From Clostridia bacterium (GTDB taxonomy: Bacteria; Bacillota; Clostridia; TANB77; CAG-508): a stretch of 64,000 bases of DNA. The notes under the pieces were generated by a model. It did no database searches. It saw only the letters and a program-made list of their open reading frames with translations, and had not been told where the DNA came from. Shown here in pieces: positions 18,263 through 19,471 of the stretch (position 1 is the stretch's first letter; each line of letters begins with the position of its first letter). The stretch spans positions 69,300 through 133,299 of the forward strand of contig JAGAED010000017.1 of NCBI GenBank assembly GCA_017613275.1, given 5' to 3'. Made by a program: the position numbers and the translations under genes.

Positions 18263-19471
18263 GTGTTATTAATTTTGGCAGGGATAACAATAAATGCATT
18301 AACAGGAAGTGACTCTGCACCAGCAAAAGCAAACGAAGCAAAACAAAAAAATGACATTGGTTCAGCAAAAGAACAATTAGCATTATTAGTGCAAAACGCA
18401 CAATTAGATGCTTATGATGACATATATGTAGATAACAATAAAAGTGTAAAAGCAACAGCAGCTACAAACACAGTAGGACAAAGAGTAATAAACGCAGCAT
18501 TAGCACAATATGGAACAGCACAACAAATAGGAGATGCTACAATGCAAGTAACACAATCAGCAGTAGGACAAGATGCAGCAGTAACAATAACAACAAGAGA
18601 CTTTACACAAACAGGAACAATAAGCATTGATGGTGGAGTATTAACATGGCAACCAATTACAGAAAATGGTGGTGGACAAGGAAATGTTGATACAGGTGGA
18701 CCAACAGTGGTAGGTGGAATAGAATCAGTAAGTATTGGAGATAAAGTAGCTTATACACCACCAGCTGATACTACAATTGCAAATTTAGACTTGCCAGAAG
18801 GAACAACAATTGAAAATTCCCTAAATTATAAAGCAGATGATATTAAAGATTGGGTAGTCCTTGATGTAGATACAACTACTGGAGAAATATTAATAGTACC
18901 AGATACAACTAGTGATGATAATTCATTTGTTGAATTAACTTTAGATGGAATGGATGGATATAATAATGCAATAGCTGCATTAAATAAAGTAGCAGAACAA
19001 TATAAAAATCCAACATATGCAAAAGAAGCAAGAAGTATAACAGTTGAAGATGTAAATAAACTAGAGGAGCGAGGTCCAGATTATTTTACTGATGAGGAAA
19101 AAGCGGAACTAAGTGTTTCGGAAAAATGGGAGCATAGATATGGAATGGATACTAATTTAGATATACACGATTATGGACAAACAAATGGTGTAGATAATGT
19201 AGCAGAAAGAACATATGTAATAACACCATCTACTGCAATAATATATTATTTTATAAATAGGAGTTCGGGCTTTCTGGAGGGTGAGTACTTCTGGCTAGCT
19301 TCACGCTGTGTTAGTCTTTACTCTAGCAGCTGTGACTTCTACGTGCGCTGCTTGGAGGGCGGTTACGTGCAAGGAGTTGAGATGTTCGGTGTGTTTCGTA
19401 GACGGTACCTGGATAGGCGGCGCCGACGAGTGGGAGGGCGACGGCGAAGAATACGTTCTTCCTGTAGTTAA
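18263..19471 (+). CDS. Prepilin-like surface protein, paralog a (ORF as it stands); C-type-lectin/DUF1566-like head carrying an A-depleted patch
   Basis: The N-module [32 protein letters not shown].. is shared with 20465 and 36033(-). The C-terminus has YFWLASRCV..FYVRC. The ORF ends in an Arg-rich out-of-frame tail. Confidence 0.6.
   Translation: MLLILAGITINALTGSDSAPAKANEAKQKNDIGSAKEQLALLVQNAQLDAYDDIYVDNNKSVKATAATNTVGQRVINAALAQYGTAQQIGDATMQVTQSAVGQDAAVTITTRDFTQTGTISIDGGVLTWQPITENGGGQGNVDTGGPTVVGGIESVSIGDKVAYTPPADTTIANLDLPEGTTIENSLNYKADDIKDWVVLDVDTTTGEILIVPDTTSDDNSFVELTLDGMDGYNNAIAALNKVAEQYKNPTYAKEARSITVEDVNKLEERGPDYFTDEEKAELSVSEKWEHRYGMDTNLDIHDYGQTNGVDNVAERTYVITPSTAIIYYFINRSSGFLEGEYFWLASRCVSLYSSSCDFYVRCLEGGYVQGVEMFGVFRRRYLDRRRRRVGGRRRRIRSSCS
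19262..19455 (+). other. Adenine-depleted, GC-rich, NNC-codon patch (candidate DGR variable region)
   Basis: Hand count: ~16% A and ~57% G+C, against ~47% A just upstream. No stop codon in any forward frame. Confidence 0.55.

What the first reader, a model, noticed from the sequence alone, without database searches (positions are those of the whole stretch)
19262..19455. Adenine-depleted, GC-rich, NNC-codon island at the 3' end of a pilin-like gene: candidate orphan DGR variable region
Composition flips abruptly at ~19262 inside pilin-like paralog a.

My hand count over 19261-19450 gives about 16% A, 27% T and 57% G+C. The 60 nt just upstream (19201-19260) have about 47% A, and the window as a whole is roughly 30% G+C.

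All stop codons contain A, so every forward frame stays open here. This is why the ORF track shows overlapping ORFs 18263-19471, 19308-19538 and 19301-19510(-).

Codon choice switches from the local A/T-ending habit to NNC/NNG. Examples: tac ttc tgg cta gct tca cgc tgt .. agc agc tgt gac ttc tac gtg cgc tgc ttg gag ggc ggt tac gtg; later gac ggt acc tgg ata ggc ggc gcc gac gag tgg gag ggc gac ggc.

The peptide (EYFWLASRCV..SSS.DFYVRC.EGGYV ... EEYVLPVVNLKSG) resembles the YW.(A/S)S ... VR(P/C)V C-type-lectin / DUF1566-like ligand-binding module. That module is the most common scaffold of diversity-generating retroelement (DGR) targets.

In DGRs, scaffold codons of TR/VR avoid adenine, and variable residues derive from AAC/AAY template codons that become NNC/NNY. 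In an AT-rich genome this predicts exactly such an island, ending a few dozen codons before the stop.

No reverse transcriptase, Avd or template repeat is visible in this window. It would therefore be a remote (in-trans) target or a relic.
Basis: partly seen in the sequence, partly recalled or inferred. Interest (0 to 1): 0.85.

Follow-up and report, generated by a model that had tools for sequence, protein, structure and literature searches.

The report
Orphaned, frameshifted DGR variable repeat
The GC-rich, adenine-poor patch is the variable repeat of a diversity-generating retroelement (DGR) target gene, a pilin-like surface protein of an uncultured Clostridia bacterium, but here it has no retroelement within 64 kb and is broken by a frameshift, so it is an ordinary and possibly dead member of a known system.

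Summary
The composition island is real. Bases 19262-19455 are 56% G+C and 17% A, against 30% and 42% for the window, and this is the highest-GC stretch of that length in 64 kb.

It is the variable repeat (VR) of a DGR target. Homologues of the gene in other metagenome contigs (L001, L017, L007) carry the same scaffold (TGGCTAGCTTC.CGCTGTGT ... CTTCCTGT). They are followed by a MutS-like gene, bAvd, an AAC-rich template repeat and a DGR-type reverse transcriptase. In the L001 VR/TR pair, differences fall only at template adenines. In every family locus examined the VR is 51-58% G+C inside a 27-34% G+C gene.

The window has no TR, RT, Avd or MutS-like gene. The start codon is also out of frame with the pilin-like ORF.

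Whether a distant DGR still services this copy or it is a relic could not be settled. I lean towards relic.

The claimed DUF1566/C-type-lectin assignment was not confirmed. There is no Pfam hit and no PDB fold match, only a weak fold match to a DUF6273 phage protein.

Verdict: a new member of a known kind.

The parts
18178..18262 (+). Shine-Dalgarno sequence (AAAGAGGAGGAA, 18178-18189), ATG at 18199 and the leader. The ATG frame is offset by +1 from the pilin-like ORF. One fewer A in GAGAAAAACG (18202-18211) would give [28 protein letters not shown].
   Evidence: Sequence reading and coordinates. The same arrangement occurs in paralog b. Homologues have an in-frame M..[20 protein letters not shown].
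18263..19390 (+). Body of the pilin-like DGR-target gene (frame of ORF 18263-19471). It comprises the rest of the N-terminal hydrophobic pilin-like helix, a variable middle region, and the conserved C-terminal domain up to ...GGYVQGVEMFG.
   Evidence: ORF list. Homologues P0002-P0032 at 35-59% identity. Equals MBO4293760.1 / J5881_05185. Profile hits to type IV pilin N-termini in the PDB are weak (E 0.0014-0.07).
19262..19288 (+). 5' GC-rich extension of the island (AGTTCGGGCTTTCTGGAGGGTGAGTAC, SSGFLEGEY), upstream of the scaffold shared with the L001 TR. It may be part of this lineage's VR.
   Evidence: Composition in 20-nt steps. Comparison with L002, where the same codons are A/T-rich.
19289..19469 (+). 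Variable repeat (VR) core, from TTCTGGCTAGCTTCACGCTGTGT to CTTCCTGTAGTT. The VR as delimited (19292-19465) is 55.7% G+C and 16.7% A.
   Evidence: Aligns to the L001 VR (11162-11336) and TR (12325-12499) and to the L002 and L015 VRs. Composition.
19388..19400 (+). Site of the 1-nt frameshift inside the VR (GGTGTGTTTCGTA). Upstream is the body frame; downstream is the frame of 19308-19538.
   Evidence: Three-frame translation. Alignment of the repaired protein to intact homologues.
19416..19446 (+). Most GC-rich stretch (GGCGGCGCCGACGAGTGGGAGGGCGACGGCG, 75-80% G+C in 20-nt steps) near the 3' end of the VR. This part is about 6 codons longer than in the homologues.
   Evidence: GC-rich flanks of the mutagenic region and a GC-rich start of the IMH are general DGR features (PMC5758913, read).
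19458..19487 (+). 3' boundary of the VR and IMH-like flank (CTTCCTGTAGTTAATCTAAAATCTGGAATC). In relatives, VR/TR identity ends at CCTGT(G/A) and continues only imperfectly.
   Evidence: VR/TR alignments of L001 and L017. The TCTAAAATCTGGAATC stretch is identical in L001 and L015. Codon-level conservation is not above the gene's background.
19395..19538 (+). Displaced C-terminal coding segment (FVDGTWIGGADEWEGDGEEYVLPVVNLKSGIQMEKDGNNVWQLSVIQ, stop at 19536-19538).
   Evidence: ORF 19308-19538. It aligns to the conserved C-termini VLPVVxLKSxIQ...W.LS of the homologues.

Best explanation
The island is the variable repeat (VR) of a DGR target gene.

**How the system works in relatives that still have it.**
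- A cassette sits directly after the target gene, in the order MutS-like gene, bAvd, template repeat (TR), reverse transcriptase.
- The cassette transcribes the TR, which has adenine-free scaffold codons interspersed with AAC/AAT codons.
- The TR transcript is reverse-transcribed with misincorporation opposite adenines.
- The resulting cDNA replaces the last ~160-180 bp of the ligand-binding C-terminal domain of a pilin-like, membrane-anchored surface protein.
- Scaffold codons must avoid A, and the AAY codons become NNY. In a 30% G+C genome this leaves an abrupt GC-rich, A-poor, NNC/NNT-codon patch.

**Shown here.** Homology of the patch to VR/TR pairs; adenine-specific VR/TR differences in the L001 pair; the same composition step in all family VRs examined; and absence of the cassette from this window.

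**Inferred.** This copy acquired its present sequence by such homing events in the past.

**Current state of this copy.** It is orphaned within at least 18 kb upstream and 45 kb downstream. A 1-nt frameshift inside the VR cuts off the conserved C-terminal strands, and the start codon is out of frame. In the sequenced population it most likely makes no functional protein. I think it is more likely a decaying or switched-off relic (about 0.55) than a target still serviced in trans (about 0.3).
For: **Observation.** The composition and codon statistics are confirmed.

**L001, homologue P0017 (48% protein identity).**
- Layout: target 10001-11389, VR 11162-11336, MutS_I-like 11522-11959, bAvd 11949-12302, TR 12325-12499, RT 12716-13683.
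- In the first 112 nt of the repeat, 14 of 14 VR/TR mismatches are at TR adenines and 0 of 78 non-A positions differ.
- Over the 175-nt repeat, 21 of 26 mismatches are at A. The other 5 lie at the extreme ends, beyond the homologous block.
- The TR translates to NLNSNNCNFNVRNLNGGNVNNNNLFNVNDNGNTNDNNNNYYVLPV.

**Other cassette-bearing loci.**
- L017 (P0012) has the same cassette and a TR/VR pair.
- L007 has target, MSL, Avd and TR, plus an RT fragment with IGAMTSQ and YQDD.
- L010 and L012 are followed by the same MSL start.

**The window island.**
- It aligns to these repeats over the shared scaffold.
- Family VRs are 51-58% G+C and 14-20% A, against 27-34% G+C upstream.
- The RT family is large, with 2742 hits, all carrying PF00078 among those listed.

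**Absence of a cassette and signs of disruption.**
- The window has no TR, RT, Avd or MSL.
- The frameshift is shown, and the same product occurs on two ENA contigs and in an NCBI MAG.
- L002 shows that cassette loss next to an intact VR does happen in this family.
Against: - No TR or RT was found for this genome. Only 64 kb of a 277,573-bp contig could be read, and the genome is absent from the GTDB-representative and JGI collections. DGR involvement at this locus therefore rests on homology.
- Several codons at positions that are AAC in the L001 TR end in A or G here (CAA, GGA, GAG). 18 of 78 scaffold positions differ from the L001 TR. The cognate template, if any, must be a diverged one.
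- The 3' part is about 6 codons longer than in relatives and contains GAG/TGG/GAA codons.
- Relic status is not proven. The patch has not decayed towards the genome's A+T bias. L017, which is cassette-adjacent, also shows a one-codon indel and non-A changes relative to its own TR. Indels and odd codons therefore do not prove inactivity.
- No population data could be examined.
Confidence: 0.85

Rival explanations
1. Live remote target. A DGR cassette elsewhere in the same genome (beyond this window) still rewrites this VR in trans. The frameshift would be a transient by-product of error-prone homing, or a low-fitness allele that the next homing event would repair.
For: - Non-adjacent and remote (>100 kb) targets are documented for cellular DGRs: 45 of 372 DGRs have non-adjacent targets (PMC5758913).
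- The island keeps its full GC-rich, A-poor character in a gene whose upstream third codon positions are 90% A/T.
- The 3' boundary CTTCCTGTAGTT..TCTAAAATCTGGAATC is intact and matches the VR flank of relatives.
- A cassette-adjacent VR (L017) also carries an indel and non-A changes relative to its TR.
- The RT family is very abundant in related gut Clostridia.
Against: - No RT, Avd, MSL or TR lies within 18 kb upstream or 45 kb downstream.
- In 5 of the 7 family genes whose downstream sequence was seen, the cassette directly follows the target.
- The conserved GC-rich hairpin element found between target and MSL in relatives is absent here.
- There are two frame disruptions in one gene.
- The 90%-identity cluster of this protein in a 15-billion-protein collection holds only this one sequence, with no VR variants.
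- A search with the VR peptide found no TR-encoded ORF or sister target.
Confidence: 0.3
2. The patch is a foreign high-GC insertion, a recombination patch, or an assembly chimera. It would then have nothing to do with retroelements.
For: The composition changes abruptly and there is a frameshift inside the patch.
Against: - The patch is collinear with homologues on both sides and encodes their conserved motifs (WLASRCV ... VLPVVxLKS).
- All family members from other AT-rich contigs have the same GC-rich patch at the same place.
- The same sequence was assembled on two ENA contigs and in an NCBI MAG.
Confidence: 0.02
3. The GC-rich island marks an embedded structured RNA or other nucleic-acid element, as GC islands in AT-rich genomes often do, rather than a coding feature.
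For: In AT-rich genomes GC-rich islands are typically RNA genes. The only other comparable signal found in the window was a tRNA.
Against: - There is no Rfam hit at gathering thresholds and no tRNA or tmRNA at the island.
- The predicted fold is no more stable than shuffles: z = +0.72, and 152 of 200 shuffles fold at least as well.
- The sequence is explained codon by codon by protein homology.
Confidence: 0.02

Closest known systems
DGRs with Avd plus MSL (MutS-like) accessory genes (Wu et al. 2018, NAR; PMC5758913)
   Same: Relatives of this gene (L001, L017, L007) have the order target, MSL, Avd, TR, RT. They show adenine-specific TR/VR differences, GC-rich constant flanks and an imperfect IMH/IMH*-like repeat after the mutagenic block. 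That paper also describes non-adjacent targets, occasional non-A changes and indels.
   Different: The window copy has none of the cassette parts within 64 kb and is frameshifted. In the relatives the RT is short (about 317 aa), and in L001 and L017 it is itself split into several ORFs.
DUF6273 / C-type-lectin-like DGR targets of gut Firmicutes phages (tentaclins, Faecalibacterium prophages; PMC10743442, PMC11792537)
   Same: The VR maps to the C-terminal end of a beta-rich ligand-binding domain and forms long beta-hairpins in the model. The best structural match of the AF2 model is a phage DUF6273 protein (E 7.7e-3, probability 0.87). The hosts are gut Firmicutes.
   Different: The repaired protein and 75 relatives do not hit the Pfam DUF6273 model. 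There is no phage context and no relative in IMG/VR. The N-terminus is a pilin-like membrane anchor rather than a tail or Ig module.
Treponema denticola TvpA DGR with remote targets
   Same: It is a cellular DGR diversifying surface proteins, with several targets scattered far from the RT (summarised in PMC5758913). This is the model for the 'remote target' reading.
   Different: TvpA is an FGE-type C-type-lectin lipoprotein. Here there is no FGE-sulfatase hit and no PDB fold match, and no TR is known.
Pilus-associated DGR targets: Bacteroides type V pilus adhesins (bioRxiv 10.1101/2024.11.15.621889) and rare GspG-type pilin domains carrying a VR (PMC11661182)
   Same: A hypervariable binding module is displayed on a pilin-type scaffold. 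5 of 75 relatives hit the prepilin N_methyl motif (best E 4.3e-6).
   Different: The pilus class differs: a type IV/pseudopilin-like N-terminus rather than type V. In the window the pilin-like N-terminus is not in frame with the start codon. N_methyl is below threshold in the closest homologues.

Membership tests
Diversity-generating retroelement (system) | Reverse transcriptase of DGR type ([LIV]GxxxSQ motif 4, YxDD) | tested here: not met
   None is present in the 64-kb window by tblastn with the L001 RT or by six-frame motif scan. Relatives have one: L007 carries IGAMTSQ and YQDD, and L001 carries TSQ and YQDD. The rest of this genome could not be read.
Diversity-generating retroelement (system) | Template repeat paired with the VR, differing at template adenines | tested here: not met
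   There is no second copy of 19230-19540 in the window and no TR-flank motif. Relatives have the pair: in L001, 14 of 14 mismatches in the first 112 nt and 21 of 21 within the homologous block are at A. L017 also has a TR/VR pair.
Diversity-generating retroelement (system) | Accessory gene (Avd, here together with MSL) | tested here: not met
   tblastn with the L001 Avd and MSL against the window gives no hit better than E 0.57. Both genes are present in L001, L007 and L017.
Diversity-generating retroelement (target/VR) | VR at the 3' end of a target ORF: adenine-poor scaffold, variable NNY codons, homologous to a VR with a proven TR partner | tested here: met
   The island aligns to the L001, L002 and L015 VRs and to the L001 TR. 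Composition and codon shift are confirmed. Some codons are not NNY (CAA, GGA, GAG).
Diversity-generating retroelement (target/VR) | IMH-like 3' boundary distinguishing VR from TR | tested here: inconclusive
   The boundary sequence CTTCCTGTAGTT..TCTAAAATCTGGAATC matches the relatives' VR flank. Codon identity there (8 of 10) is not above the gene-wide background of about 72-77%.
Diversity-generating retroelement (target/VR) | Within-population hypervariability confined to VR codons | not testable with these tools
   No reads are available. The only indirect hint is that the 90% cluster contains just this sequence.
C-type lectin fold DGR variable domains (DUF1566, FGE-sulfatase, DUF6273) | Match to the Pfam family models | tested here: not met
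   There are no Pfam hits at E<=1 for the repaired C-terminus or for 5 homologues. None of 75 relatives hits these families at E<=0.01.
C-type lectin fold DGR variable domains (DUF1566, FGE-sulfatase, DUF6273) | Structural similarity to solved C-type-lectin variable proteins (Mtd, TvpA, FGE) | tested here: inconclusive
Type IV pilin-like / prepilin N-terminal methylation proteins | N-terminal G|(F/I)TL(I)E-type cleavage/methylation motif followed by a hydrophobic helix | tested here: inconclusive
   The window reads ..[22 protein letters not shown] but lacks Glu5 and is out of frame with the ATG. N_methyl is below threshold in close homologues (E 0.011-0.3) and is matched by 5 of 75 relatives (best E 4.3e-6). 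PDB pilin hits are weak.

The most novel reading that the evidence does not exclude
The gene is not dead. It would be a remotely serviced DGR target on a type IV pilin-like display scaffold, with expression additionally gated by a +1 frame offset at the A5 tract of the leader. That offset is shared by both paralogs in this window.

On this reading, ON/OFF phase switching is layered on DGR hypervariation. The variable domain belongs to a large family (2252 clusters at 50% identity with E<=0.001) that no Pfam model covers.
Probability: 0.12. Interest if true: 0.6.

Novelty: new member of a known kind. Interest (0 to 1): 0.35.

Why it matters
**Method.** In AT-rich genomes, an abrupt GC-rich, adenine-poor, NNC-codon patch at the 3' end of a surface-protein gene is a reliable sequence-only sign of a DGR variable repeat, even when the retroelement is not in view. 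That is useful for spotting orphan or remote targets that RT-centred DGR finders miss.

**Biology.** The finding adds a pilin-like, membrane-anchored target family from gut and rumen Clostridia. Its variable domain is widespread but not covered by Pfam.

**Decay.** It documents how such targets break down: loss of the cassette, and frameshifts in the VR and the leader.

The mechanism itself is the known DGR mechanism, so the finding extends a catalogue and does not open a new question.

Tried and rejected
**Searches for cassette parts in the window.**
- TR: blastn-short and relaxed blastn with 19230-19540 found only the self hit.
- TR 3' flank motif conserved in the L001 and L007 TRs (TAGCTTCTATAAACTGWGGTT, up to 3 mismatches): 0 hits.
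- RT, Avd and MSL by tblastn and RT motifs by six-frame regex: nothing.

**Attempts to reach the rest of the genome.**
- GTDB-representative scan with the scaffold 20-mer: this genome is not in the collection. The scan returned L003 (an unrelated 236-aa duplicated target) and a chance alphaproteobacterial hit.
- JGI metagenome scan: only L007 and L008.
- IMG/VR protein scan: no relative.
- Walking off the window ends with edge proteins: only short Logan/ENA contigs, or no record.
- RT homologue list inspected for contig lengths of 277,573 or 150,846 bp, or a J5881 tag: none in the top 120 of 2742.
- VR-peptide search for a TR-encoded ORF or sister target: one weak hit, P0163.

**Tests of the claimed fold and family.**
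- Pfam and NCBIfam on the ORF, the repaired C-terminus and relatives: no lectin-type family.
- Foldseek against PDB, twice: no hit.

**Other readings tested.**
- Structured RNA: rejected.
- Nucleotide-level constraint on the IMH-like flank: not above background.
- Using non-NNY codons and the indel as proof of relic status: rejected, because the cassette-adjacent L017 VR also has a codon indel and non-A changes relative to its own TR.
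Full report
**1. The observation**

- 19261-19450 is 16.3% A, 26.8% T and 56.8% G+C.
- The preceding 60 nt are 46.7% A.
- The window is 29.9% G+C.
- Among all 194-nt windows (mean G+C 0.299, sd 0.049), the maximum of 0.562 is at this spot. No other place exceeds 0.46.

Third codon positions flip. In the 333 upstream codons of the same gene they are A 58% and C 4%. In the island they are A 13% and C 38%.

There is no tRNA or Rfam family at the island. 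Its RNA fold is no better than shuffles, with z = +0.72.

Two details were wrong.
- One of the three forward frames does contain stops in the island.
- The quoted peptide is a splice of two frames. The gene body (ORF 18263-19471) ends in an Arg-rich nonsense tail. The conserved C-terminus, YVLPVVNLKSGIQMEKDGNNVWQLSVIQ*, lies in the frame of ORF 19308-19538. A 1-nt frameshift therefore sits at about 19388-19400, most simply an extra T in GTGTTTCGT.

**2. Where the window comes from**

- The 402-aa product occurs on two ENA contigs, the longer being ERZ27256909 k141_46502 (277,573 bp).
- As a 398-aa call it is NCBI MBO4293760.1, 'MAG: hypothetical protein J5881_05185 [Clostridia bacterium]'.
- A neighbouring window gene also occurs in an ENA re-assembly labelled XIEF21-1_SAMN15830076.
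- The frameshift is therefore reproducible across assemblies.

**3. What the gene is**

A search with the frameshift-repaired C-terminal 274 aa found 41 relatives, all from ENA, Logan or NCBI metagenome assemblies and none with a Pfam domain. The alignment shows three regions:
- a pilin-like N-terminus, M..[20 protein letters not shown];
- a variable middle region;
- a conserved C-terminal domain ending WLASRCVxLxSxxCxFxVRxLxGGxV....LFxV...G.........VLPVVxLKSxIQ.

The 'x' positions in that C-terminal motif are filled with N/D/Y/S/G/H/C/F, which is the NNC-codon alphabet.

A profile of the C-terminal domain retrieves 2252 clusters (50% identity representatives) at E<=0.001 and 445 at E<=1e-10, in many architectures. 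Of 75 relatives scanned against Pfam:
- none hits DUF1566, FGE-sulfatase, Lectin_C or DUF6273;
- five hit the prepilin N_methyl motif (best E 4.3e-6);
- three hit camelysin-type N-termini;
- one hits BspA LRRs.

**4. The decisive evidence: relatives with complete DGR cassettes**

*L001 (homologue P0017).* The target gene (10001-11389) is followed by a MutS_I-like gene, a bAvd gene, a 175-nt repeat of the gene's 3' end, and an RT.
- The downstream copy is the template. It translates to NLNSNNCNFNVRNLNGGNVNNNNLFNVNDNGNTNDNNNNYYVLPV.
- In the first 112 nt, 14 of 14 VR/TR differences fall on template adenines, and none of the 78 non-adenine positions differs.
- Over the whole repeat, 21 of 26 differences are at A. 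The other five lie at the ends, where the repeat finder overran the homologous block.

*L017 (homologue P0012).* It has the same gene order and a TR/VR pair.

*L007.* It has target, MSL, Avd and TR, and an RT fragment with IGAMTSQ and YQDD.

*L010 and L012.* Both are followed by the first 22-33 codons of the same MSL gene before their contigs end.

The window island aligns to these VRs and to the L001 TR over the scaffold TGGCTAGCTTC.CGCTGTGT ... CTTCCTGT. In every family locus examined the VR is 51-58% G+C and 14-20% A, within genes that are 27-34% G+C upstream.

The composition island is thus a family-wide footprint of the TR design (adenine-free scaffold codons plus AAY codons) and of adenine mutagenesis. 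It also fits the general description of GC-rich constant flanks around the mutagenic block in DGRs (PMC5758913).

**5. The state of this particular copy**

*No cassette in view.*
- The window contains no second copy of the patch.
- It has no TR-flank motif.
- It has no RT, Avd or MSL.
- In relatives the cassette starts about 130 nt after the stop codon. Here the next gene, 150 nt downstream, is D-tyrosyl-tRNA deacylase, followed by a paralogous pilin-like gene and uvrB.
- A conserved GC-rich hairpin element lies between target and MSL in L001, L010, L012 and L016. It is absent here.

*Cassette loss happens in this family.* L002, the closest full-length homologue, keeps only the first 15 nt of that hairpin element and has no cassette in 10 kb.

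*Disruptions.* The window gene carries the VR frameshift. Its Shine-Dalgarno sequence and ATG (18199) are in a frame +1 off the pilin-like ORF.

*No variants seen.* Its 90%-identity cluster in a 15-billion-protein collection holds only this one sequence.

*Why relic status is not proven.*
- The patch has not drifted towards the genome's A+T bias.
- Remote targets are well documented (PMC5758913).
- The cassette-adjacent L017 VR itself is one codon longer than its TR and has two non-adenine changes. Indels and non-NNY codons (here CAA, GGA, GAG) are therefore not proof of inactivity.
- 18 of 78 scaffold positions differ from the L001 TR. Any cognate template must belong to a diverged lineage. 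The closest scaffold found, in P0005 (L015/L016), is itself frameshifted just upstream of its VR.

I could not read the rest of the genome. It is not in the GTDB-representative or JGI collections. Edge-walking failed. The RT family is too large to pick out a same-genome member.

My split is about 0.55 relic or switched-off, about 0.3 serviced in trans, and the rest unknown.

**6. Fold and family of the variable domain**

- The repaired 274-aa C-terminus models with high confidence (pLDDT 89.9, pTM 0.90). The VR-encoded part forms long beta-hairpins.
- Foldseek finds nothing in the PDB with E<0.5.
- A domain-only model was poorer (pLDDT 69) and also found nothing.
- The best BFVD match is a phage DUF6273 protein (E 7.7e-3, probability 0.87).
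- The Pfam model itself is not matched.

**7. Comparison with what is known, and novelty**

The mechanism is the standard DGR mechanism. The Avd plus MSL accessory set is already described (PMC5758913). Pilus-associated DGR targets are known for Bacteroides type V pili (bioRxiv 10.1101/2024.11.15.621889), and a GspG-type pilin domain carrying a VR was listed as a rare case (PMC11661182). Searches of the held literature found no paper combining 'diversity-generating retroelement' with 'prepilin'.

I rate this a new member of a known kind. It is an orphaned, frameshifted VR of a pilin-like Clostridia target family whose variable domain is widespread but not in Pfam.

**8. Verdict**

- Observation: confirmed.
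- Core interpretation (DGR variable region, orphan in this window): supported.
- Lectin-family label: not confirmed.
- Relic versus remote target: unresolved, leaning relic.
- Interest: moderate to low. The main value is methodological, as a composition-only signature of DGR targets in AT-rich genomes. There is also one side observation worth a look, the shared +1 leader offset of both pilin-like paralogs.

Noticed in passing
window 18178-18262 and 20380-20464: Both pilin-like paralogs have a strong Shine-Dalgarno sequence and an ATG whose frame (MEKNETQNKRNNAY..., stop after 37 codons) is +1 off the long pilin-like ORF (..[24 protein letters not shown]..). The pilin frame has no canonical start before the middle of the hydrophobic helix. 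In paralog b a TAA closes that frame just upstream of the Shine-Dalgarno sequence. One fewer A in GAGAAAAACG would fuse the frames. A +1 re-pairing of tRNA-Lys on AAA-AA is mechanically possible. A small hairpin (AAGCGGAATAACGCTT, 18223-18238) follows. Several homologues (P0023, P0028, P0030, the L007 target) are also called N-terminally truncated. This could be phase-off, recoding or decay; it is unexplained.
   Followed up: partly
window 20465-21844: Paralog b shares a ~93% identical promoter, leader and N-terminal ~420 nt with the target gene. Instead of the variable domain it carries BspA-type leucine-rich repeats (PF13306, E 6e-106). The same pilin-like anchor therefore displays two different binding modules 2 kb apart.
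   Followed up: partly
L001 11415-11495; also L010, L012, L016; truncated in L002 1805-1819: A conserved GC-rich long imperfect hairpin lies between the target's stop codon and the MutS-like gene in cassette-bearing relatives: GCAGGCCTATGGTCAGCTGAACTTAGGTGTCATATAGGCATGAAGCGTAGCGAAAGCCTACATGGCACCTAAGGCTTT. It could be the target gene's terminator or the DGR's downstream inverted repeat. L002 keeps only its first 15 nt, which marks the cassette deletion endpoint. It is absent from the window.
   Followed up: partly
L017 7080-7275 versus 8257-8450: A cassette-adjacent VR is one codon longer than its own TR, inside the AAC run (GAC CAC CAC GGC GAC versus AAC AAC AAC AAC). It also has two non-adenine differences. 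Indels and non-canonical changes therefore occur between cognate TR and VR in this family.
   Followed up: yes
L002 454-1791 versus L010 499-1845: P0003 and P0004 have flanks that are 95-100% identical, including about 150 nt after the VR. Their VRs differ heavily, including two 3-nt indels and third-position changes. Two other internal segments are only 57-80% identical. The genes are mosaics, so VR differences between them are not explained by adenine mutagenesis from one TR alone.
   Followed up: partly
L001 12716-13683; L017 8656-10478; L007 66-1888 (reverse-complement coordinates): Many family loci look damaged in the assemblies. The L001 RT is split exactly at motif 4. In L017 only short unannotated ORFs (98, 56 and 203 aa) lie where the RT would be. 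The L007 target has a deletion in the pilin-like helix and a frameshift before the VR. The L008 copies and P0005 are frameshifted in or near the VR.
   Followed up: no
L003 585-1295 and 2144-2854 (minus strand): In an 'uncultured Clostridium sp.' MAG, two tandem near-identical 236-aa genes differ almost only in a YWLASRCV...AVRPVA C-terminal patch. One copy is N-rich and looks template-like. This is an unrelated small target family sharing the same scaffold 20-mer.
   Followed up: no
alignment A6 /: The C-terminal variable domain family is large: 2252 clusters at 50% identity with E<=0.001, in proteins up to 4445 aa and sometimes in several copies per protein. No Pfam model covers it among the 75 members scanned.
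   Followed up: partly
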